A stretch of DNA of 64,000 nucleotides from a virus (taxonomy: Duplodnaviria; Heunggongvirae; Uroviricota; Caudoviricetes). Shown here one piece after another: positions 340 through 17,615 of this stretch. Below the pieces are notes generated by a model. The model was not told the origin of the DNA. It ran no database searches and was given only the letters and a program-made list of their open reading frames with translations. The translations under genes were made by a program, and so were the position numbers. Positions within the stretch are counted from its first letter, which is position 1. Each line of letters starts with the position of its first letter. The stretch is from the IMG/VR virus record IMGVR_UViG_3300032167_000010; one strand, 5' to 3'.

Positions 340-1041
340 TTGTACCTGGATTTATTTGACGAGCTTAGATTAAATAAAAAATTAGTAAGGATTGCTGGCT
401 TTGATGTCGCCGCTTATTGGGCCGAGCTACAAAGCGTTCTTAAACAAGTAGTTAAGAAACAGACTGCTGATGAAAGAGGATTCTTTACTTTAGATAGAGA
501 CTATATAGAAAGAGAAACTACTTTAACTATCACAAAGCAACTTAAGTGTGAAGAGAAGTTAGTTGCTATGGGAGTTATTATGAAAGACCCGGCAGAACCG
601 AATAAACTTGCTATTGCAGTAAACGGAATGGTTGCGGTAATCACAGATGAAGATACTACTAAGTTAAAGAAGTCTTCTAAAACTTCTGCTGATGCTAAGG
701 CCGCTAAGATCGCTGGGATTAAAGCGACAATGAAAAGAGCTATCTTTACTACTGACCCTGAACTTAGACCTGCTTATGAACGTTGGGTAGACGGAATGGT
801 TGATGCACAAAATTGTAAGTTTACTAAAGCAGTAGTACAACTGTTCGAGAAGACTGTGTCTCAATATACTACGAACATCGCTACACAACTTAAGATAATA
901 GAAGTCGCAACTATCAATAGCTACAAAGACGCAACTTGGGCAATTAACAAAATTACAAGCTCAACTAATTTTAGAACATCTGTTGCAACAGCACTTCCTG
1001 AGCAAAAGATATGTTCAGGTGTCTCTACAGAAGTTTTTTAA
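340..1041 (+). CDS. hypothetical protein (233 aa)
   Basis: ORF track; TTG start 8 nt after AGGAGG. Confidence 0.55.
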   Translation: MYLDLFDELRLNKKLVRIAGFDVAAYWAELQSVLKQVVKKQTADERGFFTLDRDYIERETTLTITKQLKCEEKLVAMGVIMKDPAEPNKLAIAVNGMVAVITDEDTTKLKKSSKTSADAKAAKIAGIKATMKRAIFTTDPELRPAYERWVDGMVDAQNCKFTKAVVQLFEKTVSQYTTNIATQLKIIEVATINSYKDATWAINKITSSTNFRTSVATALPEQKICSGVSTEVF

Positions 1042-1068
1042 AAAATTGTAAAAATATGTCAAAAATAG

Positions 1069-1097
1069 TTTACAAATATGCTTAAACGCGTTATAAT
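1069..1097 (+). promoter_or_regulatory. early-class promoter (UP-like A/T tract, -35 TTTACA, 17 bp spacer, TATAAT)
   Basis: TTTACA 1069-1074; TATAAT 1092-1097; A-rich tract upstream. Confidence 0.7.
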
Positions 1098-1128
1098 ATA
1101 TGTAGAATAAAAGTTGGAGGACAAATTT

Positions 1129-1509
1129 ATGGAAAAATTTATTGTTGTTGCAAATTTTACTTGTCATGACACTTGTGAAGATGACCTTTATACATCTCAA
1201 TGGTTAGTAGGAACTTTTGATAAAGTTGAAGATTGTATTGAGGCATCGAGAAAAGACTTAGGTAGAGTTGCTCAGGACCACTTTGAGTGTGTTCTTTGTG
1301 AAGAAGAATTTGAGAGTGAAAAAGAATACTACGACGCAATTGCTGAAAACGTTGCTAACTATTGCAGTGACCGTTGGGAGGCAATGATAGGAGGTATTGA
1401 AGTAGAACTAAATACCTCTAACTCAGTAGAAACTATGTCTAATGACTTTATTGATAGTGAGTTCACAGACCAACGTCAAATTGTAAAATATTATATACAT
1501 AAAATATGA
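1129..1509 (+). CDS. hypothetical small Cys-containing protein
   Basis: ORF track 1114..1509; internal ATG 9 nt after GGAGG preferred. Confidence 0.55.
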   Translation: MEKFIVVANFTCHDTCEDDLYTSQWLVGTFDKVEDCIEASRKDLGRVAQDHFECVLCEEEFESEKEYYDAIAENVANYCSDRWEAMIGGIEVELNTSNSVETMSNDFIDSEFTDQRQIVKYYIHKI

Positions 1510-1531
1510 TTAGTATACTGGAGAATGACTT

Positions 1532-1750
1532 ATGGAAAACATTTTAGAAATTATTAGAACAGAACTTGAAGAACTTGCTGAAGAACACAGAGTTGCGGCA
1601 AGTAATGAAAGACTTTGGGCAAAAGGATCGCCTGATGCAGAAACTGCTAAAATGCACGAAGACAATGTAATAGTAAATAATCAAATTGCAGACATATACA
1701 GTAATCTCGCGGCGAACGTTTTGTCTATCGTAGAAACTTACGGCAATTAA
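1532..1750 (+). CDS. hypothetical protein (72 aa)
   Basis: ORF track; SD-like CTGGAGAA upstream. Confidence 0.55.
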   Translation: MENILEIIRTELEELAEEHRVAASNERLWAKGSPDAETAKMHEDNVIVNNQIADIYSNLAANVLSIVETYGN

Positions 1751-1771
1751 AATATCTGGAGGATATATAAA

Positions 1772-2101
1772 ATGAAAAAATCAAAATACCTTGGTTTGAA
1801 ATCAGGCAATTGGGAATGCACGCATGTCGGAGTCGCTTCTGTACAACCTACATTCAAAAAGTATGAAAGGGATTTGTTTGGAAGACGTGTAAGGAGTAAG
1901 AGTCCTGGTAGTAAACAATACTACTATATCTTTGAAAGACTTACTTCCGACAAGAAAGCAATGAAGATGATTAGGCTCAACGCTGCTCAAGCGCGTCTAG
2001 TGCTCTGCAATTGGTTTACTGTTGAGGACTTTGCTAAAAAGAAAGAGACTAAGAGATCACAGGATTTTGCACATAAAGTGAGTTATAGTTTCTGTGATTA
2101 G
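1772..2101 (+). CDS. hypothetical protein (109 aa)
   Basis: ORF track; SD TGGAGGA 8 nt upstream. Confidence 0.55.
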   Translation: MKKSKYLGLKSGNWECTHVGVASVQPTFKKYERDLFGRRVRSKSPGSKQYYYIFERLTSDKKAMKMIRLNAAQARLVLCNWFTVEDFAKKKETKRSQDFAHKVSYSFCD

Positions 2102-2160
2102 TACATAAAATAAATTGATTTAATTGTGAAGTTTGTTAACAAGCTTGCAAATTGTAAAAT

Positions 2161-2200
2161 AGCACTGTGGTTGTTGGACAGTGCTATTTTAATTTTTTTT
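2161..2200 (+). terminator. rho-independent terminator
   Basis: hairpin agcactgt-N9-acagtgct followed by T-run. Confidence 0.6.
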
Positions 2201-2220
2201 GAAAAACTTGCTAAAAACAG

Positions 2221-2249
2221 TTTACAAATTACGGTAATTATGCTATAAT
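2221..2249 (+). promoter_or_regulatory. early-class promoter
   Basis: TTTACA 2221-2226; TGcTATAAT 2241-2249; 17 bp spacer. Confidence 0.7.
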
Positions 2250-2280
2250 ATAGATATAAAATAAATGGAGGATACATAGT

Positions 2281-2709
2281 ATGGATGAAATCGGAGCAAT
2301 TATCTTAGCAGTAGCTTTTATTGGTGGTATTATATTTTTAATAGGATACTGTACACTTGGAACAATTTTATATGATAGACTAGAAGACAAATATAGAAAA
2401 GAGTGGGAAGACGCCCATCCGAATGAACTTATTAGGATTAAAGAACTAGATAAAGAAATCGAAGCCCTTGAGCCGAAGCGACGACTATTACATACAATCA
2501 AGAAGCAGATTGATGAGATTACTGCGGAGATGAAGTATATAGCTAATACAGAAAATACTGAGCTAAAACTTCTTGGTTTAAAACGCATGGCAGAAACCCT
2601 TATAGAAGACGAGCGCCGTTGGTATAAACTACTCGGTGAACGTAATGATATATGTTATGCTTGGTCGGAATATATACAAAACAAAATGCCAAAATGGCTA
2701 AAATATTAA
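2281..2709 (+). CDS. membrane-anchored coiled-coil protein
   Basis: ORF track; N-terminal hydrophobic helix; SD TGGAGGA. Confidence 0.6.
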   Translation: MDEIGAIILAVAFIGGIIFLIGYCTLGTILYDRLEDKYRKEWEDAHPNELIRIKELDKEIEALEPKRRLLHTIKKQIDEITAEMKYIANTENTELKLLGLKRMAETLIEDERRWYKLLGERNDICYAWSEYIQNKMPKWLKY

Positions 2710-2737
2710 AAAATTTCAAAAATTTACCTAAAAACAG

Positions 2738-2766
2738 TTTACAAATTTTACCAAATATGATATAAT
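2738..2766 (+). promoter_or_regulatory. early-class promoter
   Basis: TTTACA 2738-2743; TGaTATAAT ending 2766; 17 bp spacer. Confidence 0.7.
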
Positions 2767-2798
2767 ATTTATAGTAAAAGTTTTGGAGGAAACTATAT

Positions 2799-3140
2799 AT
2801 GAAATTTTCAGATTTAGACAAAAGAGGTGTTGAATTATTTACAGAACACCACGAAGTTAAGTTTTACGAAATGATCTTATGCTTTGCTGCGGAAGAACTC
2901 TTCGAAGAAGATATTGATGAAATCGAATTAACAAATTATCAATTTAATAAACTATTAAATTGTATGACTTGTTATCTCGCTGATGACTATCACGTATCTC
3001 CTTGGCATGTTGCTGATGCACTCGTAGCATTAGTTAAGAAGCACGGAGCTGATACTGTTATTACAGACTGTAATGATGGAGGTAAGTTGCTAGAAACTGA
3101 ACTTTATAAGTTAGAGTCAGGAAGTTATGAAGGAGAATAA
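2799..3140 (+). CDS. hypothetical protein (113 aa)
   Basis: ORF track; SD TGGAGGA. Confidence 0.55.
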   Translation: MKFSDLDKRGVELFTEHHEVKFYEMILCFAAEELFEEDIDEIELTNYQFNKLLNCMTCYLADDYHVSPWHVADALVALVKKHGADTVITDCNDGGKLLETELYKLESGSYEGE

Positions 3141-3142: not shown

Positions 3143-3838
3143 ATGTTAAAAGTATATTGTGATGGAGCTTGCTCAGGAAATCCCGGTATGGGTGGTTGGG
3201 CATTTGTAATCCCTAAGTTAGAAGCAGAGGACTCTGGTTATTATGTAAAAACTACAAATAATCGTATGGAAATTACAGCAGTTATTGAAGCTCTTAATTA
3301 TGTTAATGAATACTTTTGGGGCGTTGACAAAGTAGAAATAATTACCGACAGTCAGTATGTAGTTAATACGATGACTAAAGGTTGGCAGAAGAAAAAGAAT
3401 CTAGACTTATGGGAAGCTCTTGATGAAATCCTCTATATGTTTAAAGAAGTCAAGTGGACTTGGGTTAAAGGACATGCCGATAATAAGCATAATCAAAGAT
3501 GTGATGAACTTGCTGTCGAAGCTTATAGAATATACCAACGTGCTAAAGAAGAGAAGGAAAGTCAAAAAGCTCACGAGGCCCTACATAAGTATGACGATTG
3601 TTATGATACAGAAATTCCACTTACTGCTACATCACCTCAGACAGCTGTAGCTATTGCGCTTACCGCACATAAGAGATATACTATTGGTAATCATACTTAT
3701 ACCATATTAGATTGTGCCGGCTTACCTGGTTTATATGTAATAGAGAAAGACTACTGTACACTTATCTACCACGGTACCTTTGACGATTGTATGTATGAAC
3801 TAAAAGACATAAAAAACCCAGACGCACTTCCTTTTTAA
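3143..3838 (+). CDS. rnh: ribonuclease H (RNase HI domain plus ~90 aa C-terminal extension)
   Basis: motifs CDGACSGNPG, TNNRMEI, TDSQYV, VKGHADNKHNQRCDELA match RNase HI catalytic core. Confidence 0.8.
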   Translation: MLKVYCDGACSGNPGMGGWAFVIPKLEAEDSGYYVKTTNNRMEITAVIEALNYVNEYFWGVDKVEIITDSQYVVNTMTKGWQKKKNLDLWEALDEILYMFKEVKWTWVKGHADNKHNQRCDELAVEAYRIYQRAKEEKESQKAHEALHKYDDCYDTEIPLTATSPQTAVAIALTAHKRYTIGNHTYTILDCAGLPGLYVIEKDYCTLIYHGTFDDCMYELKDIKNPDALPF

Positions 3839-3878
3839 AAATAATTTTAAAAATTTTTGAAAAAGCACGTTAAAACAG

Positions 3879-3907
3879 TTTACAAAATTGGAAAAATATG
3901 TTATAAT
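3879..3907 (+). promoter_or_regulatory. early-class promoter
   Basis: TTTACA 3879-3884; TATAAT 3902-3907; 17 bp spacer. Confidence 0.7.
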
Positions 3908-3939
3908 TATAAATGTAAATAAGTTTTGGAGGAAATATT

Positions 3940-4713: not shown

Positions 4714-4941
4714 ATGAAAATTGAAATGACTACGTCGCCTGCAATACATATTAAAGCTATTGGGTACGAGAAGACTAATACAGAAGAAATCTTAAGTCTC
4801 GAGCTTCCTGATGGAATTCGTAAGTTTTACGGAGTGCCGAAGAACATTTATGACGAGCTCATCAAAGTCTTACATCGAGCTGACTTCTTGGTTAAGGTTT
4901 TAGCAAATAATTATAAATATGAAGATATAGTTTGTAATTAA
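4714..4941 (+). CDS. hypothetical protein
   Basis: ORF track 4696..4941; ATG 7 nt after AAGGAGGA. Confidence 0.5.
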   Translation: MKIEMTTSPAIHIKAIGYEKTNTEEILSLELPDGIRKFYGVPKNIYDELIKVLHRADFLVKVLANNYKYEDIVCN

Positions 4942-4979
4942 AAAATTTTTAAAAAAGTTTTAAAACAGGCTTAAAACAG

Positions 4980-5008
4980 TTTACAAATATTTAATTTTGT
5001 GGTATAAT
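4980..5008 (+). promoter_or_regulatory. early-class promoter
   Basis: TTTACA 4980-4985; TGgTATAAT ending 5008; 17 bp spacer. Confidence 0.7.
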
Positions 5009-5039
5009 ATATGTATAAAGATTGTTAAGGAGAGTACAT

Positions 5040-6338
5040 ATGAAAACACTTATTCACTTTAAGGAATTCTGCGACGAAATTACACAAAGTGCGAGCAGAA
5101 AATACAAACAAGAAGTATTAACTAAATATAAAGATGATGAAGTAATTAAGAAATATCTTAAGATTGCTTATGATCCTTATGAGGTATACGGAATTTCTAC
5201 TAAGAAGCTTTCTAAAGGTATTGCTGGAATGACCCTATACACTTTTGATACTATCCTCGAACTCTTTGATTACTTAAAAGTACATAACACAGGCAGAGAC
5301 TGCGATGTTAAATTATGTCAAGCAACATTAGAAGTTGTATATTCGGCGTTTGAGGGCTGTACTTTACTTCTTAAAGAACTTATCTGTAAAGATTTGAGTA
5401 TCGGGTGTGATGCGAAGACCATTAACTCTGTAATGCCTAATCTAATTCCTACGTTTGATGTACAACTCGCCAATAAATACTTCGATAAGCCTGATTACGT
5501 AGAAGGAAAGGAATTTGCTATTACTACGAAGATAGACGGCGGAAGAATTATTGCTATAAAGGAAAATGGCCAAGTTTCATTTTTCACTCGTGCTGGACAA
5601 AGATACGAAGGATTAGTTGATCTCGAAAAAGAAATGCTTGACCGAATTCCGGACAATTTCGTTTTTGATGGTGAGATTACTTTACTTGACTACAAGAGCT
5701 ATGATTCTAAAGACGCTTATAAGCAGGCAATGAAGATTACTAGAGCGGACGGCGAAAAGCATGGAGTTAAGATGCTTGTCTTCGATTGTATGTCTGCGGA
5801 AGAGTTTCGTAAGCAACACTGTCTGGCTGGTTGGTATGTAAGAAGAACGTTAGTAGAAAGTATTTTCAATCTTGCTGGAGACCTTACATATTTCGAACTT
5901 CTTCCAGTATTGTATCAAGGAACTGATACTTCTAAGATTACAGAATTGTTAGATGCCGAGATTGCTCGTGGCCAAGAAGGTATAATGATTAACATTTGCG
6001 ACGCGAAGTACGAATTCAAAAGAACGAACTCACTTCTTAAAGTAAAGAAGATGAATACCCTCGACCTTCAAATCATCGGCTTCGAAGAAGGATCTGGAAG
6101 ACTTGCCGGAACGTTAGGAGCTATCTTAGTTAGATACAAAGATGGAAACATCGTAAAAGTCGGCTCTGGATTTACGGACTGGTTGAGAGAAGAGATTTGG
6201 AAAAATCAAGGAAAGTATTTAGACACTATCTGCGAGATCCAGTATTTTGAAGAGACTACTAATCAAGACGGCGGAATTTCACTTCGCTTCCCTATCTTCA
6301 AAGATTTCAGAACTGACAAGCTTGAGGCCGACTTCTAA
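5040..6338 (+). CDS. lig: ATP-dependent DNA ligase
   Basis: motif I TKIDGGRII (KxDGxR), motif IV QEGIMI, motif V LLKVKK; ORF track 5022..6338 with ATG after AAGGAGAG. Confidence 0.8.
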   Translation: MKTLIHFKEFCDEITQSASRKYKQEVLTKYKDDEVIKKYLKIAYDPYEVYGISTKKLSKGIAGMTLYTFDTILELFDYLKVHNTGRDCDVKLCQATLEVVYSAFEGCTLLLKELICKDLSIGCDAKTINSVMPNLIPTFDVQLANKYFDKPDYVEGKEFAITTKIDGGRIIAIKENGQVSFFTRAGQRYEGLVDLEKEMLDRIPDNFVFDGEITLLDYKSYDSKDAYKQAMKITRADGEKHGVKMLVFDCMSAEEFRKQHCLAGWYVRRTLVESIFNLAGDLTYFELLPVLYQGTDTSKITELLDAEIARGQEGIMINICDAKYEFKRTNSLLKVKKMNTLDLQIIGFEEGSGRLAGTLGAILVRYKDGNIVKVGSGFTDWLREEIWKNQGKYLDTICEIQYFEETTNQDGGISLRFPIFKDFRTDKLEADF

Positions 6339-6356
6339 TAAATTATTAAATTAATA

Positions 6357-6390
6357 AAACCCGTGTATTAATCTGCACGGGTTTTTCTTT
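6357..6390 (+). terminator. rho-independent terminator
   Basis: hairpin aaacccgtg-N9-cacgggttt plus T-run. Confidence 0.65.
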
Positions 6391-6424
6391 ATAAAAAATT
6401 TTTGGAAAATTATGCCAAAAATAG

Positions 6425-6453
6425 TTTACAAAATTAAATTTTTATGTTATAAT
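6425..6453 (+). promoter_or_regulatory. early-class promoter
   Basis: TTTACA 6425-6430; TGtTATAAT ending 6453. Confidence 0.7.
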
Positions 6454-6484
6454 ATAAGTATAAAGCTTAAGTGAGGTACATATT

Positions 6485-6672: not shown

Positions 6673-6864
6673 ATGAAAAGAGCGGAACAAGTAAGTCAAA
6701 AGAAAACTAAAAAAGAATCTTTGTCTTTTAATATAAAAGTAAATCCTACACATGTGCCTAATATAGAACATGTCCGTATGTGTGAGAAGTTTCCAGCGAG
6801 AACTTTTGAAGATAAGAGATTTAAGAAGCCGAAGCATAAAGAAAAATATTTAGAAAATTATTAA
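6673..6864 (+). CDS. hypothetical basic small protein
   Basis: ORF track; SD AAGGAGA. Confidence 0.5.
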   Translation: MKRAEQVSQKKTKKESLSFNIKVNPTHVPNIEHVRMCEKFPARTFEDKRFKKPKHKEKYLENY

Positions 6865-6882
6865 AAAGTGCTTAAAAATGCT

Positions 6883-6910
6883 TTACAAAATTGGTAAAAT
6901 GTGTTATAAT
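6883..6910 (+). promoter_or_regulatory. early-class promoter (16 bp spacer variant)
   Basis: TTTACA 6883-6888; TGtTATAAT ending 6910. Confidence 0.6.
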
Positions 6911-6949
6911 ATATACATAAAGAATAAATAAAGTTTGGAGGAAACTTTT

Positions 6950-7742: not shown

Positions 7743-8483
7743 ATGGATAAAGAATTATTTACAGAAATACTAGAGTCTCTAAAACAACGTAAGGATTTGT
7801 GCGAAAGTTTTCTAGGCACAGTACATACCACAGAAGATCTTAAACAACTTTCTCTCGCTCGAGCAGTAGAACTTAAGAAGTTTTGTGTAGAAGAAGAAGT
7901 AATCATGACTAAGATTGTTATGGTTGATCTCTACCATATTATTGGCATGGGACAGTTGTCGCCAACTCAGATGATGAAGTTTACATATTTAATGCAGGAC
8001 TACCTTTCTTACCGCCCAGTGATAAAAGCTCTTGCTCAGAAGTTAGACCGCATCGAAGAACTTCCTAAAATCCCTATTAAAACTAAATTTAAGTTAATGG
8101 GATTGGGCAACGCTACTCTAACTTATGGTGAAGGTGAAGTAGTTGATGAAGCTTCAATAGAAGACTACGATAAACTTAGGGAACAGAATATCCCTGAACC
8201 TCCCGCTGAACTTCCTTTTACAATCTCAGGCAATAAGATTAAAGTAGACCTTGGCAAGCTTGATGTGTTTGTTCAGTTAATGGAAATGTTGTTTAAGACA
8301 CCACTCTCTGTTGATAAACTTAAGAGTAAAATTAGTAGTCATGGTGAGTATATAGGAATTACTTGGACTGATATGTTCTATGAAGAAACTTGCGAAGGAC
8401 CTGCTGGTATTTTTGCAGTAGGCAATATGACATCTAACAGCACTCGTCAAAAGATTATGAGTTATGTTAATAAAAAATCTTAA
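7743..8483 (+). CDS. hypothetical protein (246 aa)
   Basis: ORF track; SD-like CGAGGTAG. Confidence 0.55.
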   Translation: MDKELFTEILESLKQRKDLCESFLGTVHTTEDLKQLSLARAVELKKFCVEEEVIMTKIVMVDLYHIIGMGQLSPTQMMKFTYLMQDYLSYRPVIKALAQKLDRIEELPKIPIKTKFKLMGLGNATLTYGEGEVVDEASIEDYDKLREQNIPEPPAELPFTISGNKIKVDLGKLDVFVQLMEMLFKTPLSVDKLKSKISSHGEYIGITWTDMFYEETCEGPAGIFAVGNMTSNSTRQKIMSYVNKKS

Positions 8484-8521
8484 AAATTTTTTAATTTTTT
8501 TGAAAAAGTATATAAAAACAG

Positions 8522-8550
8522 TTTACAAAACTGGTAAAATATGTTATAAT
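8522..8550 (+). promoter_or_regulatory. early-class promoter
   Basis: TTTACA 8522-8527; TGtTATAAT ending 8550. Confidence 0.7.
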
Positions 8551-8593
8551 ATAATTACAAAGTAAATAAACAAATTTTTTGGAGGAAAAATTT

Positions 8594-9111: not shown

Positions 9112-9150
9112 GAAATAACCTATCATAAAAGGTAGGTTATTTTTTTTATT
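9112..9150 (+). terminator. rho-independent terminator
   Basis: hairpin aataacctatc-N7-gtaggttatt plus long T-run. Confidence 0.6.
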
Positions 9151-9175
9151 TTTTTTGAAAAGTGCTTAAAAACAG

Positions 9176-9204
9176 TTTACAAATTACGGTAAATGTGATA
9201 TAAT
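9176..9204 (+). promoter_or_regulatory. early-class promoter
   Basis: TTTACA 9176-9181; TGtgaTATAAT region ending 9204; 17 bp spacer. Confidence 0.7.
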
Positions 9205-9238
9205 ATATGTAAGATAAAACGAGGAGGACGTAAGTCTT

Positions 9239-10580: not shown

Positions 10581-10612
10581 AAACCCTGAGGCATATGTCT
10601 TGGGGTTTTTAT
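10581..10612 (+). terminator. putative terminator
   Basis: aaaccc..ggggttttt stem with T-run. Confidence 0.45.
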
Positions 10613-10655
10613 TTTATAAAAAATTAAAAAAATTTTCAAAAAGTTTGTAAAAACA

Positions 10656-10684
10656 GTTTACAAAATTGGAAAAATATGTTATAA
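10656..10684 (+). promoter_or_regulatory. early-class promoter
   Basis: TTTACA 10656-10661; TGtTATAAT ending 10684. Confidence 0.7.
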
Positions 10685-10721
10685 TATTGTATGTAAATAA
10701 GATTTGGAGGTTAGTTAGAAT

Positions 10722-11231: not shown

Positions 11232-11441
11232 ATGATTAAGTGTGTATATTTGATTAAATGTGAACGAGATGCGTATGACCCTAATGATATCACCGCTACT
11301 TACACGGATATAGTAGGTTTTGTAGACGACGTTGAAGTTGCAAAAGCATACTGTCTTAAAAGAAATGATGGTTGGGAATACGGTCCTTACTCTTATGAAT
11401 GTGTGAGCGAACTTACTATAAAAGATATGGAGGAAAACTAA
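11232..11441 (+). CDS. hypothetical protein
   Basis: ORF track 11205..11441; ATG 7 nt after GAGGAGG. Confidence 0.5.
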   Translation: MIKCVYLIKCERDAYDPNDITATYTDIVGFVDDVEVAKAYCLKRNDGWEYGPYSYECVSELTIKDMEEN

Positions 11442-11962: not shown

Positions 11963-12190
11963 ATGAAAAAAGAATGCACTGGAAATCTTAAAGAGATTAT
12001 TTTAGCAATGATCGAAAACGAAACGGACTGTTGTGAAGTTACAAATACTGTCGGTGACATTTCTGTAACTGTAGACATTACTATTACTAAGATAGTAGAT
12101 AAAGGTGAAGTAGTCTACGATGCTTACGAAGATAAAGATGATCCTTACAGCGACGAGATTGATGACTACGAGCCTCGAATTTTACATTAA
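11963..12190 (+). CDS. hypothetical acidic protein (75 aa)
   Basis: ORF track; SD ATAGGAGAA. Confidence 0.5.
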   Translation: MKKECTGNLKEIILAMIENETDCCEVTNTVGDISVTVDITITKIVDKGEVVYDAYEDKDDPYSDEIDDYEPRILH

Positions 12191-12229
12191 AATTTTTTAA
12201 AAAATTTTTAAAAAAGTGGCTAAAAACAG

Positions 12230-12258
12230 TTTACAAATCCGGTAAAATATGTTATAAT
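12230..12258 (+). promoter_or_regulatory. early-class promoter
   Basis: TTTACA 12230-12235; TGtTATAAT ending 12258. Confidence 0.7.
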
Positions 12259-12293
12259 ATAATTACAAAGATTGATTAAGGAGACCGCTTGTT

Positions 12294-13304: not shown

Positions 13305-13493
13305 ATGGATATATTTAGTCAACGCAGTAATGAACTTCAAAAAGCGTATGAAGAAGGAATAATCCACGGTGTAGAAACCGTGTGTGCTGAACTAACTGAA
13401 ACTTTTAAAGATATTCCAATGTGGGGATCTGTAGCAGTATATCATATCAATAAGTTGTTAGAAAACTTTAATAAGGAGAAAGACGCCAGATGA
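13305..13493 (+). CDS. hypothetical protein
   Basis: ORF track; SD AAAGGAGAA. Confidence 0.5.
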   Translation: MDIFSQRSNELQKAYEEGIIHGVETVCAELTETFKDIPMWGSVAVYHINKLLENFNKEKDAR

Positions 13494-13738
13494 GAAAACC
13501 TGAAATAATCGAAACTTCCGAAATTTCGCCATGTCCGTTTTGTGGTAATACCAAACTTAAGGTAGATAGTAAGCACAATGGTCATTGGTCTACTGTTGGA
13601 ACACACTCTGCTACTGTAAGATGCACTAAGTGTCATGCCAGAGGTCCGACTGCATCGTGTAAAGTATCCCCTGAACTTTATGGTGCAGATGATGCTACTA
13701 AACAGAAAGCAATAGAACTTTGGAATAAGAGGATTTAA
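13490..13738 (+). CDS. Lar-like zinc-finger protein (possible restriction alleviation)
   Basis: SPCPFCGN...CTKCHARG double Cys pairs typical of the Lar family; ATGA overlap with upstream gene. Confidence 0.45.
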   Translation: MRKPEIIETSEISPCPFCGNTKLKVDSKHNGHWSTVGTHSATVRCTKCHARGPTASCKVSPELYGADDATKQKAIELWNKRI

Positions 13739-14051: not shown

Positions 14052-14258
14052 ATGGGAAAAACACTTACTCAAAGAATCTATGAAACTCCACTAGATATTA
14101 AAGATGCTCTTTATAACAGTGGATACAAAGCCGGCAAATCAGCAATGATAAGTGAAATAAAAGATATTCTAGAAGACTGCTCTCAGACTAATGGTATAAT
14201 GTTCGTTAGAGCGCTTCAAGATCTTATAGAAAAATACGGAGAGAAAGATGCTAGATAA
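14052..14258 (+). CDS. hypothetical protein
   Basis: ORF track; SD AAGGAGGA. Confidence 0.5.
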   Translation: MGKTLTQRIYETPLDIKDALYNSGYKAGKSAMISEIKDILEDCSQTNGIMFVRALQDLIEKYGEKDAR

Positions 14259-14484
14259 AATTTATCTTTATGGTGCAAGGGATACCACAACAGGAAAGTT
14301 AGTATCAGATATTACTAATCCTAAAAGAAAGTATTGGGATAAGAAAGGTAATGCCGAGAAAGCAATCAGCGATTACAATCGAGGTTATGCCAACAGAAAA
14401 CTTCCGTATTCCGCTAACAAAGGCGAACATGGGATTATCGAATTAGTTATCTTTGAATTAGTAGAGGTGCCAAATGGAAAATAA
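14248..14484 (+). CDS. hypothetical protein
   Basis: ORF track; SD GGAGAGA. Confidence 0.5.
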   Translation: MLDKIYLYGARDTTTGKLVSDITNPKRKYWDKKGNAEKAISDYNRGYANRKLPYSANKGEHGIIELVIFELVEVPNGK

Positions 14485-14928: not shown

Positions 14929-14957
14929 TTTAGAAAATTACAGCAAAATGTAAAAAG

Positions 14958-14976
14958 TTTTACTGTATAATATAAT
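14958..14976 (+). promoter_or_regulatory. middle-class extended -10 promoter (cTGTATAATATAAT)
   Basis: TGTATAAT 14964-14971. Confidence 0.45.
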
Positions 14977-14977
14977 A

Positions 14978-15128
14978 GAAAATGCCGCGGGGAATAACTA
15001 CTTTTGATATATCTCTTATCGTTTTCTTTTGTAAGTGTTCCTTCATTCTCCTCCTTAAACATAAACATTCTCCGTGGCTTCCACATAATTATTTAAAAAG
15101 ACCTGCTGTTTTAGTGGGTCTTTTTTCT
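14978..15128 (+). ncRNA. candidate ~150-nt small RNA (promoter + terminator unit without ORF)
   Basis: starts just downstream of TGTATAAT; ends at hairpin gacctgctgttttagtgggtc + T6 (15098-15128); internal ccttcattCTCCTCCttaaac anti-SD-like motif; 5' gccgcgg pairs with 3' ccgtggc. Confidence 0.4.
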
Positions 15129-15175
15129 ACCATTTATTGTATACTATAGTATTATGAAATTTGGAGGATTAACAA

Positions 15176-15364
15176 ATGAGTAAGTACACTACATATTATA
15201 ATAGTAGACAGACGATGTATAGAGATCTAGCGACTAATTGGATGAAGTACGTAGAAGAACATGGGATTACGAAACGTCAGATGCACGGGATGTCTATCTT
15301 CTTTACTAATATCGCTAGAAGATTCGGATTAATGAAAGACTTCCGAGACATCGGAGTTATTTAA
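15176..15364 (+). CDS. hypothetical protein
   Basis: ORF track; SD TGGAGGA. Confidence 0.5.
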   Translation: MSKYTTYYNSRQTMYRDLATNWMKYVEEHGITKRQMHGMSIFFTNIARRFGLMKDFRDIGVI

Positions 15365-15391
15365 TTTTTTTCAAGAACTTCTTAAAAACAG

Positions 15392-15420
15392 TTTACAAAT
15401 TCTACCAAATGTGATATAAT
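15392..15420 (+). promoter_or_regulatory. early-class promoter
   Basis: TTTACA 15392-15397; TGaTATAAT ending 15420. Confidence 0.7.
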
Positions 15421-15453
15421 ATAGGTAGAATAAAAGTTAAGGAGAAATTACCG

Positions 15454-15828
15454 ATGCTTGAAATTATTAAAGAACGTAAAGTAAGAATCGAAAAAGAATA
15501 CTACATTAACTTTGACTGTAAGGCTGACGATAGTTGCGGATTTATTTTCCCTGCTAATCCAGATGAAACTCTTGCGTTGGATAAGATGCCGGAAGAAGCG
15601 AGGGCTAACTATTATACCTGTGAAATGAACGTAGACTTATACAATCGTTGGTTTGAAGAACGCGAAGTAAAAGTAGTTGACTATGCTGTGGGAAAATGTA
15701 GATGTGGTGCCAAAGTCGAACTAACTGACGATGCTTGGATGGGAGCAGTACAGTGTGAGAAGTGTGGTAAGTGGTACAACATCTACGGACAAGAACTCAG
15801 AGACCCGAAGTATTGGGAGGAGGATTAA
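15454..15828 (+). CDS. Zn-ribbon protein
   Basis: ORF track; CRCG..17..CEKCG; SD AAGGAGAA. Confidence 0.55.
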   Translation: MLEIIKERKVRIEKEYYINFDCKADDSCGFIFPANPDETLALDKMPEEARANYYTCEMNVDLYNRWFEEREVKVVDYAVGKCRCGAKVELTDDAWMGAVQCEKCGKWYNIYGQELRDPKYWEED

Positions 15829-15829
15829 G

Positions 15830-16081
15830 ATGAATAGATACCTTATCTTTTCTATTACCATAGCCGAAGATGATCTAAAACATCTTCCTGAGAAATCATG
15901 GTACAATCATAACTACTATGAAATAACCGACTGGAACGACTATCTAATTCCCGAGAAGTGTAATATACTCTTTGAGGAGTGTGAAGATGATGGACCCGGT
16001 GCTTACTATCACTTGGGATACTTTGAGGGTGAACAATTTAAGTCTATGTTTACTTGGTATGAAGATGAAGCATTGATTTAA
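15830..16081 (+). CDS. hypothetical protein
   Basis: ORF track 15731..16081; ATG after GGGAGGAGGA. Confidence 0.5.
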   Translation: MNRYLIFSITIAEDDLKHLPEKSWYNHNYYEITDWNDYLIPEKCNILFEECEDDGPGAYYHLGYFEGEQFKSMFTWYEDEALI

Positions 16082-16120
16082 AAATAATTTAAAAATTTTT
16101 AAAAAACTACTCAAAAACAG

Positions 16121-16149
16121 TTTACAAAATTTGGTAAACATGATATAAT
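16121..16149 (+). promoter_or_regulatory. early-class promoter
   Basis: TTTACA 16121-16126; TGaTATAAT ending 16149. Confidence 0.7.
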
Positions 16150-16182
16150 ATATATAAAGAATAAATAAAAGAGGTACATATT

Positions 16183-16428
16183 ATGCAGTCAACAAGAATC
16201 GCAGATACAAATGAAATTAACAGAAGGTGCAGTGAAGTCTTTGATATGCAAGAAGGCGACTTCGTTTGGGGAATCTTCCTAACTGATGACGGTCAATTGT
16301 TAGTTGAAATGGAAGAGATTACAGAAGACGGTGATAGTTCTGGCATCTTTAACTTTGAACCTAATATGGAAGAAAGACCTGAGGCACTCGCTTACTTGAT
16401 GGGCGAGAGAAACGATTTTAACGATTAA
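16183..16428 (+). CDS. hypothetical acidic protein
   Basis: ORF track; SD AAGAGGTA. Confidence 0.55.
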   Translation: MQSTRIADTNEINRRCSEVFDMQEGDFVWGIFLTDDGQLLVEMEEITEDGDSSGIFNFEPNMEERPEALAYLMGERNDFND

Positions 16429-16468
16429 AAAATAATTAAAAAATTTTTGAAAAAGTAGTTAAAAACAG

Positions 16469-16497
16469 TTTACAAATCTCACCAAATATGTTATAAT
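16469..16497 (+). promoter_or_regulatory. early-class promoter
   Basis: TTTACA 16469-16474; TGtTATAAT ending 16497. Confidence 0.7.
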
Positions 16498-16533
16498 ATA
16501 TGTAATGAATAAAGTTAATAAGGAGAACATATT

Positions 16534-16752
16534 ATGTTTTATTACAAAGTAGAATCAAGTCATTGGCCAAACAATTTAGAATTCAAATCTAAAATTAAAA
16601 TGGAAGTAGGACAATGTTTCCGAATTACTTCTCACGATGGTTTCAAATCGTATCCAACTAGATTTAAGGTATTAAGTGTTTCAGATACTCCTGAATATAC
16701 TGGAACTGTTGTTGAAATTCTAGATGCCGATTTAACTGTTGAACAGTTCTAA
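16534..16752 (+). CDS. hypothetical protein
   Basis: ORF track; SD AAGGAGAA. Confidence 0.55.
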   Translation: MFYYKVESSHWPNNLEFKSKIKMEVGQCFRITSHDGFKSYPTRFKVLSVSDTPEYTGTVVEILDADLTVEQF

Positions 16753-16818
16753 CTTTAATCACACTTATCCAAACTCGTTTTGGTTAATCTAATTTTCATA
16801 TTTTCAACTTTCGGAAAA

Positions 16819-16852
16819 AGACTGATAGAGAAAATCTATTGGTCTTTTTTCT
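16819..16852 (+). terminator. rho-independent terminator
   Basis: agactgatag-N7-ctattggtct (two G-U wobbles) plus T6. Confidence 0.55.
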
Positions 16853-16860
16853 TTTACTTA

Positions 16861-16889
16861 TTTACAGACCTCCGGAACCGTGCTATAAT
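16861..16889 (+). promoter_or_regulatory. early-class promoter (divergent spacer sequence, same geometry)
   Basis: TTTACA 16861-16866; TGcTATAAT ending 16889; 17 bp spacer. Confidence 0.6.
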
Positions 16890-16916
16890 TATCTAGAAAG
16901 TTGGAGGTGAAAGTAG

Positions 16917-17105
16917 ATGATTAGTTATTTAAGACTCAAAGATATGTGTAGAACTGTCTGGTCTTTATTAACTGAAGAAGAGCGGGACTACTATCTAGAA
17001 AATGTCGGGATGATTAAATTTATAAAAGATGTTTCTAACTTACTTGGTTTGACACCAGAATATCTTTTAGTTGAACTATATGATGAGATACTAGAACAAT
17101 TGTAA
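16917..17105 (+). CDS. hypothetical protein
   Basis: ORF track; SD TTGGAGGTGA. Confidence 0.5.
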   Translation: MISYLRLKDMCRTVWSLLTEEERDYYLENVGMIKFIKDVSNLLGLTPEYLLVELYDEILEQL

Positions 17106-17109
17106 AAGA

Positions 17110-17142
17110 AGAGATCGGTCGTTTGTTGACCGGTCTTTTTAA
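17110..17142 (+). terminator. rho-independent terminator
   Basis: gatcggtc-gtttgtt-gaccggtc plus T-run. Confidence 0.6.
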
Positions 17143-17186
17143 TTAAAAAAAATTAAAAAATTTTCAAAAAAAGTTATTAAAAACAG

Positions 17187-17215
17187 TTTACAAATTTTGT
17201 TAAATGTGATATAAT
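17187..17215 (+). promoter_or_regulatory. early-class promoter
   Basis: TTTACA 17187-17192; TGtgaTATAAT ending 17215. Confidence 0.7.
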
Positions 17216-17271
17216 ATATATGTAAATAAGTGAATGACACTTATAAAAAATAAAAAGGACGGAAACACATT

Positions 17272-17475
17272 ATGGAAAAAAAGTATGAAATTAGTTATTT
17301 TAGAAGTACAGGAAAACCTGACGAAGTCGTAGACAGAGACACGATGGAAGATATTGTTTATGAGTTAGAAAGTTTTGAAAGAGACGATGTAAACATGATA
17401 CACGAACTTGAACCTGACGGTAGTTTAGGAAAAACTATTTGGACTGAAGAAGAAGGTTTATTCGTACTTCTTTAA
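17272..17475 (+). CDS. hypothetical acidic protein
   Basis: ORF track; SD AAAGGACGGA. Confidence 0.5.
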   Translation: MEKKYEISYFRSTGKPDEVVDRDTMEDIVYELESFERDDVNMIHELEPDGSLGKTIWTEEEGLFVLL

Positions 17476-17502
17476 TTAGTTCTATCTAATAAATTTACAT
17501 AG

Positions 17503-17540
17503 AATAAAGTCTTATTAAATTAAGACTTTATTTTTTTTCA
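17503..17540 (+). terminator. rho-independent terminator
   Basis: aataaagtctta-ttaaat-taagactttatt plus T8. Confidence 0.65.
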
Positions 17541-17558
17541 AAAACTTGTTAAAAACAG

Positions 17559-17587
17559 TTTACTTTTCCGGTAAAATATGGTATAAT
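17559..17587 (+). promoter_or_regulatory. early-class promoter (-35 TTTACT variant)
   Basis: TTTACT 17559-17564; TGgTATAAT ending 17587. Confidence 0.6.
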
Positions 17588-17615
17588 ATATATAGAATAA
17601 AGAGGAGATTTTATT

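What the first reader, a model, noticed from the sequence alone, without database searches (positions are those of the whole stretch)
1040..17600. Array of ~18 near-identical super-consensus early promoters
Seen in sequence: before almost every 1-4-gene block between 1.0 and 17.6 kb (plus an isolated copy at 22049-22077) the same ~60-70 bp element recurs. It consists of an A/T-rich UP-like tract (aaaaatttttgaaaaag...), 'aaaaacagTTTACAaa', a 17 bp spacer (16 in one copy), and 'tatgtTATAATat' (TGn extended -10 plus perfect TATAAT). The -35 is always TTTACA (one TTTACT), never TTGACA. Established knowledge: this is the sigma-A/sigma70 consensus with UP element and extended -10, the layout used for host-RNAP early promoters in virulent phages such as T5 and SPO1. 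Inference: this block is the host-takeover region transcribed by unmodified host RNAP. Conservation over ~70 bp, well beyond what promoter function needs, suggests spread by duplication or recombination, and the copies could drive shuffling of the tiny early genes.
Basis: partly seen in the sequence, partly recalled or inferred. Interest (0 to 1): 0.55.

Follow-up and report, generated by a model that had tools for sequence, protein, structure and literature searches.

The report
Early promoter cassette array, gut jumbo phage
The repeats are real: a dense array of near-identical strong bacterial-type promoters, each driving a few tiny genes, in the probable early region of an uncultured ~222 kb gut phage, and close relatives show gene cassettes gained, lost and swapped by recombination inside these promoters, a known kind of phage architecture seen here in a new lineage.

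Summary
The window has 18 plus-strand TTTAC(A/T)-N17-TATAAT sites, against about 3 expected by chance. Sixteen of them share an element of about 80 bp. It has A-tracts phased every 11 bp from -76 to -39, then CAG-TTTACA-AAA, a TRTGn "-16 region", TATAAT-ATA, and a 27-43 nt leader with a Shine-Dalgarno site.

The array is larger than reported. It starts about 4 kb left of the window, just after nrdD/nrdG, giving about 24 copies in 21.5 kb. The source is a ~222 kb metagenomic gut phage with no close GenBank relative.

The best reading is strong early promoters for the host primary sigma factor. Between orthologous copies the hexamers stay 98-100% identical while the spacers drift. No copy in any relative reads TTGACA: anchored on TGnTATAAT alone, 105 sites read TTTACN. 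GTTTAC at -36..-31 with an A-rich -44..-40 is also the phage T4 early-promoter consensus.

Three hybrid-promoter junctions in relatives show cassette gain, loss or replacement by recombination within the elements, and cassette order also differs. This parallels the PeSL cassettes of T4-type phages.

A sister subclade replaces the A-tracts with an invariant TTCGTCRAT at -50..-42, which is unexplained. I rate this a new member of a known kind, of moderate interest. Early timing and the use of unmodified host RNA polymerase remain untested.

The parts
1028..1108 (+). Class I promoter element (-76..+5), -35 TTTACA at 1069-1074, -10 TATAAT at 1092-1097. It has CG instead of TG at -15/-14. Drives 3 ORFs (126, 72, 109 aa).
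2159..2187 (+). Terminator-like hairpin with a T-run, just upstream of the 2221 promoter
2180..2260 (+). Class I promoter element, -35 at 2221, TGc-TATAAT at 2241-2249. Drives 1 ORF (142 aa).
2697..2777 (+). Class I promoter element, -35 at 2738. Drives a 113-aa ORF and RNase H (3143-3838). Its upstream A/T tracts overlap the 3' end of the preceding ORF.
3838..3918 (+). Class I promoter element, -35 at 3879. Its spacer is identical to that of the 10657 copy. Drives 4 small ORFs.
4939..5019 (+). Class I promoter element, -35 at 4980. Drives the ATP-dependent DNA ligase gene (5040-6338).
6356..6385 (+). Intrinsic-terminator-like hairpin after the ligase gene
6384..6464 (+). Class I promoter element, -35 at 6425. 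An orthologous copy with a near-identical spacer is at L006 11390.
6841..6921 (+). Class I promoter element, -35 at 6882 (prefix AAATGC instead of AAACAG). Drives 3 ORFs.
8481..8561 (+). Class I promoter element, -35 at 8522. Drives 1 ORF (170 aa).
9114..9141 (+). Terminator-like hairpin upstream of the 9176 promoter
9135..9215 (+). Class I promoter element, -35 at 9176. Drives 4 ORFs.
10581..10608 (+). Terminator-like hairpin upstream of the 10657 promoter
10616..10696 (+). Class I promoter element, -35 at 10657. Drives 5 ORFs.
12189..12269 (+). Class I promoter element, -35 at 12230. It is followed by 13 small ORFs, including a Lar-like one at about 13490-13738. In relative L021 a different gene precedes the orthologous promoter.
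15351..15431 (+). Class I promoter element, -35 at 15392. Drives 2 ORFs.
16080..16160 (+). Class I promoter element, -35 at 16121. Its spacer is identical in relative L021.
16428..16508 (+). Class I promoter element, -35 at 16469. Drives 1 ORF (72 aa).
16815..16850 (+). Long terminator-like hairpin directly abutting the 16861 promoter
16861..16889 (+). Divergent promoter: TTTACA-N17-TGc-TATAAT without the shared A-tract/AAAACAG flank and with a GC-rich spacer. Drives 1 ORF (62 aa).
17113..17135 (+). Terminator-like hairpin upstream of the 17187 promoter
17146..17226 (+). Class I promoter element, -35 at 17187. Its upstream half is orthologous to the hybrid promoter at L021rc 5091.
17506..17529 (+). 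AT-rich hairpin with a T-run upstream of the 17559 promoter
17518..17598 (+). Class I promoter element, -35 TTTACT at 17559, the last copy of the array. It is followed by 16 ORFs. Its core is identical to the core of the L021 hybrid promoter.
22049..22077 (+). Isolated TTTACA-N17-TATAAT without TG and without the shared flanks. It is followed by about 80 nt of non-coding sequence ending in a strong terminator hairpin (22125-22159), so it is a candidate small-RNA promoter rather than a member of the array.

Best explanation
What it is. The region is an array of strong, co-oriented promoters for the host's primary (sigma-A/sigma-70-type) RNA polymerase holoenzyme. It lies in the ORFan-rich, probably early, region of an uncultured ~222 kb phage from gut metagenomes. 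The host is probably a low-GC Firmicute, possibly a Peptostreptococcaceae such as Intestinibacter.

How each copy works. Each copy is a complete expression cassette head.
- A-tracts centred at -74, -63, -52 and -41 provide curved, UP-like DNA for the alpha C-terminal domains.
- G-36 TTTACA is read by sigma region 4.
- T-17 R-16 T-15 G-14 is read by sigma region 3.
- TATAAT is read by sigma region 2, followed by an A/T discriminator.
- A start site is predicted about 7 nt downstream, followed by a short leader of roughly 20-35 nt carrying a GGAGG-type ribosome-binding site.

Effect. About 24 such heads in 21.5 kb (18 in the window) re-initiate transcription every 0.3-3 kb. About 7 of 17 follow a terminator hairpin. 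Many tiny genes would therefore be expressed strongly and independently, presumably straight after DNA entry.

Second role. Because the heads are about 80 bp repeats in direct orientation, they also act as substrates for homologous recombination. That recombination inserts, deletes, replaces and reorders the gene cassettes between them.

Shown and inferred. Shown: the anatomy, the selective conservation of the hexamers, the family-wide distribution and the recombination junctions. Inferred: which polymerase form reads them, their strength and their early timing.
For: Occurrence and strand bias: 23 matches against 3.1 expected, with all core copies on the coding strand.

Anatomy. Position-specific counts over 20 copies give A5 at -43..-39 and -54..-50, A-runs at -64..-62 and -76..-72, C-38 A-37 G-36, and TTTACA 20/20. 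They also give T-17 17/20, R-16 20/20, T-15 19/20, G-14 19/20 and TATAAT 20/20. TRTG is the sigma-A '-16 region' consensus of B. subtilis (PMC6570832).

Geometry. The distance from the -10 to the ATG is 27-43 nt, with GGAGG or a sub-motif present. A terminator hairpin lies upstream of about 7 of the 17 array copies.

Selection. In orthologous promoter pairs (L006/L007, L004/L132, L004/L133, L021/window) the -35 hexamer is 98.5-100% identical and the -10 hexamer 98.5-100%. The spacer is 67-93% and the remaining sequence 78-92%.

Unbiased -35 test. Anchoring on TGnTATAAT alone in nine loci, the hexamer 17 bp upstream is TTTACA 78 times, TTTACT 23 times, TTTACG 4 times and TTGACA never.

Temporal context. 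Class I copies are confined to a 21.5 kb block within the 73.6 kb examined. The remainder carries two other recurrent motifs, TGTATWATATAAT and GCTAAATTA. The latter sits in front of tail-fibre-like genes.

Known parallels. T4 early promoters have GTTTAC at -36..-31 and an A-rich -44..-40 (PMC1524935). This was seen directly in T4 DNA.

Recombination.
- L006 carries two promoter copies flanking a 113-aa gene where L007 has one hybrid copy.
- L007 11386 combines the upstream half of L006 11390 with the core of L006 11959.
- L021 5091 combines the upstream half of window 17187 with the core of window 17559.
- A three-gene block is transposed between L004 and L132, with ends 48-81 bp after a -35.
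Against: - There are no transcript data, and no host genome or host promoter set for comparison.
- The -35 never matches the TTGACA consensus. Invariance of T-33 across more than 100 promoters is not expected if an ordinary sigma-A were the only reader.
- A sister subclade (L004, L132, L133) has no A-tracts. It carries an invariant, GC-containing TTCGTCRAT at -50..-42 instead. This looks more like a specific protein site than a UP element.
- Only 74 kb of about 222 kb was seen. A phage sigma factor, RNAP or RNAP-modifying enzyme elsewhere in the genome cannot be excluded.
- The enrichment of homology breakpoints at promoters (20 of 45 within -60..+75, against 11-15% sequence coverage) is confounded. 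Breakpoints favour gene boundaries in any case.
Confidence: 0.72

Rival explanations
1. The promoters are read by host RNAP, but only or preferentially after phage-directed change. One possibility is a virion-delivered modifier, such as the ADP-ribosylation of alpha by T4 Alt. Another is a phage or host DNA-binding factor that recognises the lineage-specific upstream module: A-tract plus AAAACAG in this phage, TTCGTCRAT in the sister subclade. The invariant T at -33 and the upstream module would then be the marks that distinguish phage promoters from host promoters.
For: - There are 0 TTGACA against 105 TTTACN sites across phages whose ligases are only 71-84% identical.
- In T4, T at -33 is described as a preferred contact of ADP-ribosylated alpha (PMC1524935).
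- TTCGTCRAT is present in 36 of 37 promoters of three genomes, the remaining one reading TTCGTAAAT. It sits at a fixed distance from the -35 hexamer.
- Other metagenomic arrays carry their own upstream motifs on the same TTTAC core.
- TTCGTCA fits the reverse complement of the loose Spo0A box TGNCGAA (PMC7643835). Phage phi29 early promoters are controlled through such boxes placed over a UP element (PMC2731898).
Against: - No ADP-ribosyltransferase, sigma factor or obvious DNA-binding regulator appears among the Pfam families listed for 148 window proteins. Only the top 25 of 34 families were shown, and most proteins are ORFans.
- A-tracts at -41 and -52 are fully explained by ordinary alpha-CTD/UP interactions.
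- About half of the TTCGTCRAT sites end in G, which breaks the Spo0A box.
- Lineage-specific flanks can also arise by duplication and gene conversion, and within-genome similarity does exceed between-genome similarity even in the spacer.
Confidence: 0.18
2. The elements are promoters for a TcdR/BotR/UviA-type (group 5) alternative sigma factor, encoded by the host or the phage. That family has a -35 element of TTTACA.
For: TcdR-related sigma factors recognise -35 TTTACA and -10 GTTATA (PMC4031146). Copies reading TGTTATAAT contain GTTATA, and the likely hosts are clostridia.
Against: - The base at -13 is A 57, T 30, G 10, C 4, so GTTATA is present in under a third of copies.
- TRTGn plus an invariant TATAAT with T-7 is the primary-sigma signature.
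- The same GTTTAC form is used by sigma-70 at T4 early promoters.
- No sigma-70-family Pfam domain appears among the listed window hits.
- A virulent phage needs a polymerase form that is already present at the moment of infection.
Confidence: 0.04
3. The repeats are mainly structural or recombinational DNA elements, for example replication, packaging or cassette-exchange sites. On this view their likeness to promoters is secondary.
For: Recombination junctions map inside the elements. The copies are directly repeated, and similarity extends into the spacer.
Against: - Selection acts precisely on the two hexamers and TG, not on the spacer.
- Every copy is on the coding strand at a fixed 27-43 nt from an ATG with a Shine-Dalgarno site.
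- Several copies follow terminators.
Confidence: 0.03

Closest known systems
PeSLs (promoter-early stem-loop cassettes) of T4-type phages phi1/RB49, PST and nt-1 (PMC2839356, PMC4122927)
   Same: Both are repeated composite motifs concentrated in ORFan-rich plastic regions. Each has the stop codon of the upstream gene in an AT-rich tract, a strong sigma-70-type early promoter, a Shine-Dalgarno site and the start codon of a small gene. About 50 occur per T4-type genome. Indels and replacements between close relatives are bounded by the motifs. The hybrid promoters are the same signature.
   Different: The phage here is a non-T4, Firmicute-associated jumbo phage. A stem-loop is present in only about 7 of 17 copies and always lies upstream of the A-tracts, never inside the promoter. 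The promoter carries the Gram-positive TRTGn region. Mini-circles could not be tested.
Phage T4 early promoters (consensus as summarised in PMC1524935)
   Same: Both have GTTTAC at -36..-31 with T rather than G at -33, an A-rich tract at about -44..-40, a GT/TG motif upstream of -12, and TATAAT. Both occur as dozens of copies conserved over much more than the two hexamers, upstream of small early genes.
   Different: The host phylum differs. The 11-bp phased A-tracts here extend to -76. No Alt or ModA homologue was seen in the 74 kb examined. T4 promoters are scattered over the genome rather than packed into one co-oriented 21.5 kb block.
SPO1 host-takeover module (Stewart et al. 1998, as described in PMC6873191)
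   Same: Both are clusters of small early genes arranged in many short operons. Each operon has a promoter and ribosome-binding site typical of highly expressed sigma-A genes. Both belong to a large virulent phage of a Firmicute.
   Different: The SPO1 module is 26 genes in a 12.4 kb terminal region with both orientations. Here there are 60 or more ORFs, all co-oriented. The position relative to the genome ends is unknown. No homology to SPO1 genes was found, and the -35 hexamer is uniformly TTTACA.
phi29 early promoters controlled by Spo0A boxes (PMC2731898)
   Same: This applies only to the sister subclade (L004/L132/L133). There a short GC-containing motif resembling TTCGNCA occupies the UP-element position of every early promoter.
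   Different: The motif is TTCGTCRAT, not TTCGACA. It is single rather than paired. Binding is untested, and the motif is absent from the phage of this window.

Membership tests
Primary-sigma (sigma-A/sigma-70) promoters of Gram-positive type | -10 hexamer TATAAT, with -12 T, -11 A and -7 T | tested here: met
   20/20 core copies have TATAAT. Orthologous copies are 98.5-100% identical.
Primary-sigma (sigma-A/sigma-70) promoters of Gram-positive type | -35 hexamer TTGACA, 17 +/- 1 bp upstream of the -10 | tested here: inconclusive
   The spacer is 17 bp in all 18 copies. The hexamer is TTTACA, a 5/6 match, and never TTGACA in 105 sites. This is a systematic deviation at -33.
Primary-sigma (sigma-A/sigma-70) promoters of Gram-positive type | TRTGn '-16 region' / extended -10 | tested here: met
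   T-17 17/20, R-16 20/20, T-15 19/20, G-14 19/20. The consensus is given in PMC6570832.
Primary-sigma (sigma-A/sigma-70) promoters of Gram-positive type | A/T-rich UP element or phased A-tracts between -40 and -60 | tested here: met
   A5 at -43..-39 and -54..-50, T4 at -59..-56, and further A-runs at -64..-62 and -76..-72. UP positions are given in PMC2613000.
Primary-sigma (sigma-A/sigma-70) promoters of Gram-positive type | Transcription initiates about 7 nt downstream of the -10, by sigma-A holoenzyme | not testable with these tools
   No RNA data and no host are available.
PeSL-type mobile regulatory cassettes | A repeated early-promoter motif upstream of ORFans in plastic regions, ending in a Shine-Dalgarno site and a start codon | tested here: met
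   Most downstream ORFs have no Pfam or PHROG hit.
PeSL-type mobile regulatory cassettes | A stem-loop terminator/attenuator as an integral part of the motif | tested here: not met
   Hairpins precede only about 7 of the 17 array copies. They lie outside the conserved element, and none lies within the promoter.
PeSL-type mobile regulatory cassettes | Indels and replacements between close relatives have their junctions inside the motifs | tested here: met
   Three hybrid promoters were found, plus a cassette transposition between L004 and L132. The statistical enrichment is confounded by gene boundaries.
PeSL-type mobile regulatory cassettes | Excised mini-circles formed by recombination between neighbouring motifs | not testable with these tools
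   This needs reads or PCR across circle junctions.
T4-type early promoters | GTTTAC at -36..-31 and an A-rich tract at -44..-40 | tested here: met
   G-36 20/20, TTTAC 20/20, and A at -43..-39 in 16-20 of 20 copies. The T4 consensus is in PMC1524935, with T4 examples.
T4-type early promoters | The phage belongs to the T4 superfamily and delivers Alt to ADP-ribosylate RNAP alpha | not tested
   No hallmark T4 structural gene or ADP-ribosyltransferase was seen in the 74 kb available. About 150 kb of the genome was not examined.
TcdR/BotR/UviA (group 5 sigma) promoters | -35 TTTACA | tested here: met
   PMC4031146.
TcdR/BotR/UviA (group 5 sigma) promoters | -10 GTTATA | tested here: not met
   The base at -13 is T in only 30 of 101 sites. 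The invariant part is TGnTATAAT.
SPO1-type host-takeover module | Located in the terminal redundancy, with products that shut off host synthesis | not testable with these tools
   The genome termini are unknown. Assemblies of 221,766, 222,952 and 444,602 bp suggest a circular or concatemeric assembly. The ORFs have no homology to SPO1 genes.

The most novel reading that the evidence does not exclude
In this clade of gut jumbo phages, early promoters may not simply be strong host-type promoters. They may carry a two-part code that marks them as phage promoters. One part is an obligatory T at -33 (GTTTAC, as in T4). The other is a lineage-specific upstream module: phased A-tracts plus AAAACAG here, and TTCGTCRAT at -50..-42 in the sister subclade. 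The code would be read by a co-evolving factor. Candidates are a virion-delivered RNAP modifier or activator, or a host master regulator such as Spo0A, which would tie the whole early programme to the sporulation state of the host.
Probability: 0.18. Interest if true: 0.6.

Novelty: new member of a known kind. Interest (0 to 1): 0.4.

Why it matters
The array gives a ready, sequence-defined map of the probable early transcription units of an uncultured ~222 kb gut phage clade, most of whose early genes are ORFans. That tells experimenters which roughly 60 small genes to test for host-takeover or anti-defence activity.

It extends the PeSL idea, in which repeated early promoters act as both expression signals and recombination sites for gene-cassette exchange. 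That idea was known from T4-type phages of Gram-negative hosts and is extended here to an unrelated Firmicute-associated lineage.

The T4-like GTTTAC -35 is conserved across more than 100 promoters. The switch between an A-tract and a TTCGTCRAT upstream module offers a clean natural experiment on how phages make their early promoters outcompete, or differ from, host promoters.

The elements are also candidate strong, compact promoter and ribosome-binding-site parts for clostridial synthetic biology.

Tried and rejected
- Megablast of 1-18 kb and 40-64 kb against 50,697 GenBank phage records gave no match. Tblastn of the 790-aa protein also gave none. The ligase's best cultured relative is Geobacillus virus E3 at 43%, so no annotated relative could be used.
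- The IMG/VR scan for the motif gave one unrelated hit.
It therefore did not give the hoped-for genome-wide distribution on the 222 kb contig, although it did yield related arrays.
- The genome-contig scan with the ligase found only one distant relative, at 58%, in a Bacilli MAG with no array. This gave no help on host identity. The only host hint is two NCBI MAG labels reading 'Intestinibacter sp.'.
- Rfam at gathering threshold gave no hits in the window plus the left flank.
- ARAGORN found no tRNA genes.
- The stringent 80-column PWM found no further copies on either strand.
- The T4 RefSeq record carries no promoter annotation, so a PWM cross-test against annotated T4 early promoters was replaced by a simple pattern scan.
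- The TcdR-type sigma idea was considered and rejected on the -13 base counts.
- The Spo0A-box idea applies only to the sister subclade and fits only loosely.
- The breakpoint-enrichment statistic was judged confounded by gene boundaries, so the argument rests on the individual hybrid junctions instead.
- The paper 'Bacteriophage T4 genome' (PMC150520) is not held.

Full report
**1. The observation**

A search for TTTACA-N17-TATAAT with at most 1 mismatch returns 23 matches. The chance expectation is 3.1 +/- 1.7, and no shuffle exceeded 8.

Eighteen matches are exact on the + strand, with TTTACT once. Their -35 starts are 1069, 2221, 2738, 3879, 4980, 6425, 6882, 8522, 9176, 10657, 12230, 15392, 16121, 16469, 16861, 17187, 17559 and 22049. 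All have a 17-bp spacer.

Printing the flanks shows that 16 of them share much more than the hexamers. With an 80-column weight matrix, leave-one-out scores are 46-83 bits. Shuffled sequence never exceeds -17 bits, and no further copy exists on either strand.

The copies at 16861 and 22049 share only the hexamers. It lacks the flanks and belongs to another motif. TTGACA-N16-18-TAnAAT does not occur anywhere in the 64 kb.

**2. Anatomy**

The counts below are over 20 copies, including four from the left flank.

| Position | Content | Count |
|---|---|---|
| -76..-72 and -64..-62 | A-runs | 11-14 and 14-18 of 20 |
| -59..-56 | T-run | 14-18 of 20 |
| -54..-50 | A5 | 17-20 of 20 |
| -43..-39 | A5 | 16-20 of 20 |
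| -38, -37, -36 | C, A, G | G-36 and A-37 20/20, C-38 17/20 |
| -35..-30 | TTTACA | TTTAC 20/20, A-30 19/20 |
| -29, -28 | AA (T at -27 in only 12 of 20) | 19 of 20 each |
| -20..-18 | AAA | 14-15 of 20 |
| -17 | T | 17/20 |
| -16 | R | 20/20 |
| -15 | T | 19/20 |
| -14 | G | 19/20 |
| -12..-7 | TATAAT | 20/20 |
| -6, -5, -4 | A, T, A | 16-18 of 20 |

- The A-tracts are centred at about -41, -52, -63 and -74, an 11-bp phase.
- T-17 R-16 T-15 G-14 is the TRTG '-16 region' of B. subtilis sigma-A promoters (PMC6570832).
- The A-tracts occupy the UP-element positions (PMC2613000).
- The end of the -10 lies 27-43 nt from an ATG preceded by GGAGG or a sub-motif. The one exception is 17187, at 56 nt.
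- The preceding ORF often ends only 17-40 bp before the -35, so the A/T tracts overlap its stop codon.
- About 7 of the 17 array copies are preceded by a terminator-like hairpin.
- Units are mostly 1-5 ORFs, but 13 ORFs follow 12230 and 16 follow 17559.

**3. Where the window comes from, and the true extent of the array**

All roughly 150 ORFs in the window are on the + strand. There is no tRNA gene and no nucleotide match in GenBank phages.

The ligase (5040-6338) is found with 100% identity on metagenomic contigs of 221,766 bp (ENA) and 222,952 bp (JGI). The longest contig carrying it is 444,602 bp, which is probably a dimer. This indicates a phage of about 222 kb. Relatives with 71-87% ligase identity are numerous, and two are labelled Intestinibacter sp. 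MAGs.

Extending the window 9.7 kb to the left shows six more TTTACA-N17-TATAAT copies, at window coordinates -3971, -3756, -3002, -1987, -1796 and -640. They start immediately after nrdD-nrdG. There are none further left.

The array therefore has about 24 copies in 21.5 kb and is cut by the window edge. It is confined to one block of the 73.6 kb that could be examined.

Genes in the block are mostly ORFans. They also include RNase H, ATP-dependent DNA ligase and a Lar-like restriction-alleviation protein.

**4. The rest of the window carries other signals**

Intergenic regions from 18 to 64 kb carry two different recurrent + strand motifs.
- TGTATWATATAAT: 13 + strand sites (15 matches on both strands against 1.5 expected).
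- GCTAAATTA: 10 + strand sites (11 matches on both strands against 2.5 expected).

GCTAAATTA typically follows a terminator and sits in front of tail-fibre-like and other large genes. Three promoter-like classes in separate genome blocks is the layout expected of an early/middle/late cascade. It supports, but does not prove, an early role for class I.

**5. Evidence that these are working promoters**

Orthologous copies were compared in four pairs of relatives.

| Segment | Identity between orthologous copies |
|---|---|
| -35 hexamer | 98.5-100% |
| -10 hexamer | 98.5-100% |
| Spacer | 67-93% |
| Remaining sequence, mostly coding | 78-92% |

Selection therefore falls on the polymerase-contact positions.

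A second test anchored only on TGnTATAAT in nine loci from phages with 71-100% ligase identity. The hexamer 17 bp upstream is TTTACA 78 times, TTTACT 23 times, TTTACG 4 times and never TTGACA. The base at -13 is A 57, T 30, G 10, C 4.

**6. Which polymerase**

TRTGn plus an invariant TATAAT points to the primary sigma factor. TcdR/BotR-type sigma factors of clostridia also use -35 TTTACA, but with -10 GTTATA (PMC4031146). The variable -13 base argues against them, and no sigma domain appeared among the listed Pfam hits of 148 window proteins.

The uniform T at -33 is not what an ordinary sigma-A consensus predicts. The same form is the T4 early-promoter consensus: GTTTAC at -36..-31 with an A-rich -44..-40. 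There, T-33 has been linked to RNAP ADP-ribosylated by the injected Alt protein (PMC1524935). Examples are visible in T4 DNA.

The step 'unmodified host RNAP' therefore remains open.

**7. Relatives: a shared core with lineage-specific flanks**

- L006, L007 (ligase 84% and 79%) and L021 share the A-tract plus AAAACAG form.
- L004, L132 and L133 (72-73%) keep TTTACA-N17-(TG)nTATAAT but have no A-tracts and no CAG. Instead, TTCGTC(A/G)AT sits at -50..-42 in 36 of 37 promoters, the remaining one reading TTCGTAAAT.
- L008 (71%) is intermediate, with CGTCR plus AAAAYAG.
- Another lineage (L064, L126, L078) has AAAAACAG-TTTACA and a strongly conserved leader, TAATCTATAAGGTAATACAAA.
- Further metagenomic arrays have their own upstream motifs.
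- A distant relative (58% ligase) has no array.

Within-genome similarity exceeds between-genome similarity in every segment, including the spacer: 0.50 against about 0.40 for the window phage, with 0 of 300 label permutations reaching the observed difference. The spacer is not under visible selection.

The GC-containing TTCGTCRAT is not explained by UP-element function. It loosely fits the reverse complement of the Spo0A box TGNCGAA (PMC7643835). Phage phi29 provides a precedent for Spo0A control of early promoters at the UP position (PMC2731898). About half of the sites break the box, however, so this is only a lead.

**8. Recombination at the elements**

- L006 has two promoter copies (1403-1481 and 1849-1926) flanking a 113-aa gene. 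L007 has one copy, whose left half matches the first and whose right half matches the second.
- After the ligase, the L007 promoter at 11386 joins the upstream part of L006 11390 to the core of L006 11959. The two small genes in between are missing.
- L021 5091 joins the upstream terminator and A-tracts of window 17187 to a core identical to window 17559. A different gene follows it.
- A 78-aa gene at window 14248-14484 lies upstream of the 12230-type promoter in L021 (91% DNA identity, about 95% protein identity).
- A three-gene block is transposed between L004 and L132, with ends 48-81 bp after a -35.
- Overall, 20 of 45 internal homology ends fall within -60..+75 of a -35, against 11-15% sequence coverage. 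This figure is confounded by the preference of breakpoints for gene boundaries.

The individual hybrid promoters are the stronger evidence. This is the behaviour described for PeSL cassettes in T4-type phages (PMC2839356, PMC4122927).

**9. Verdict**

It is unproven on timing and on the state of the polymerase, too narrow on gene content, and wrong on the left boundary.

The closest known systems are T4 early promoters, PeSL cassettes and the SPO1 host-takeover module. This is a new member of that kind in an uncultured Firmicute-associated jumbo-phage clade.

The open points of real interest are two. One is the invariant T-33 shared with T4. The other is the alternative upstream modules in sister lineages.

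Noticed in passing
window + strand: 299, 14710, 14964, 19600, 20422, 23543, 24429, 31389, 32656, 40245, 41948, 49082, 52896: A second recurrent intergenic motif, TGTATWATATAAT, often as tTaTTGTATaATATAAT, with no -35 partner. There are 15 matches on both strands against 1.5 expected. It is a candidate second (middle?) promoter class, and three sites lie inside the class I array.
   Followed up: partly
window + strand: 9985, 22164, 22797, 41389, 51258, 54477, 54744, 57242, 58594, 62325: A third recurrent motif, GCTAAATTA (11 matches against 2.5 expected). It usually lies just after a terminator hairpin and in front of tail-fibre-like or other large genes. It is a candidate late promoter for an unidentified phage factor.
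   Followed up: partly
window 22049-22165: The isolated TTTACA-N17-TATAAT is followed by about 80 nt with no ORF, ending in a 16-bp terminator hairpin. The MFE is -25.3 kcal/mol and the z-score -4.9. This is a candidate small RNA gene with no Rfam family.
   Followed up: partly
L129 5690-5905 and 7674-7865 (window coordinates about -3971..-3756 and -1987..-1796): Two paralogous non-coding units of about 165-190 nt. Each lies behind a weaker TTTACA-N17-TATAAT and ends in ...TTCTGTGTT(C/T)TCC(T)TACATAAAAATATTTT, just before the next class I promoter. They may be phage ncRNAs or long leaders. There is no Rfam hit.
   Followed up: partly
L004, L132, L133 (relatives with 72-73% ligase identity): 36 of 37 early-type promoters carry TTCGTC(A/G)AT at -50..-42 in place of the A-tracts and AAAACAG; the remaining one reads TTCGTAAAT. 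The motif loosely resembles a reversed Spo0A box (TTCGNCA).
   Followed up: partly
L064, L126, L078, L059 (contigs RCUH01000718.1, RCUU01000001.1): Another phage lineage has 20 class I-type promoters in 13.4 kb and a nearly invariant transcribed leader, TAATCTATAAGGTAATACAAA, directly after TATAAT (80% pairwise identity). This suggests an RNA-level function such as processing, stability or translation.
   Followed up: no
L044, L058, L014, L125, L026, L022, L100 (metagenome loci): Arrays of TTTAC(A/T)-N17-TGnTATAAT promoters occur in several other metagenomic contigs. Each has its own conserved upstream motif, for example CTTTGCA in L044 and AAATAAGTGGCATTATTTGCAC in L058. A shared core with a lineage-specific upstream module may be common.
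   Followed up: no
window 1-64000 and L129: All roughly 150 ORFs over 74 kb are on one strand, and most are under 150 aa. GC skew is positive throughout. The same ligase protein sits on contigs of 221,766, 222,952 and 444,602 bp. This suggests a ~222 kb genome that assembles as a circle or a dimer.
   Followed up: partly
L004 5795-7954 vs L132 5913-8056: A three-gene block is transposed between two close relatives, so cassette order differs. The ends of the homology blocks lie 48-81 bp after a -35 hexamer.
   Followed up: partly
L129 5590-5690 (window about -4070..-3970): A long GC-rich inverted repeat (ACGCGCGTAACGCGTGCGCACACGT...) and a hairpin (AACGTTTGTTATTATTGACAAAACATTGCTTTTTGTTTAAAATAACAAACGTT) lie between nrdG and the first class I copy. 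They mark the left boundary of the array.
   Followed up: no
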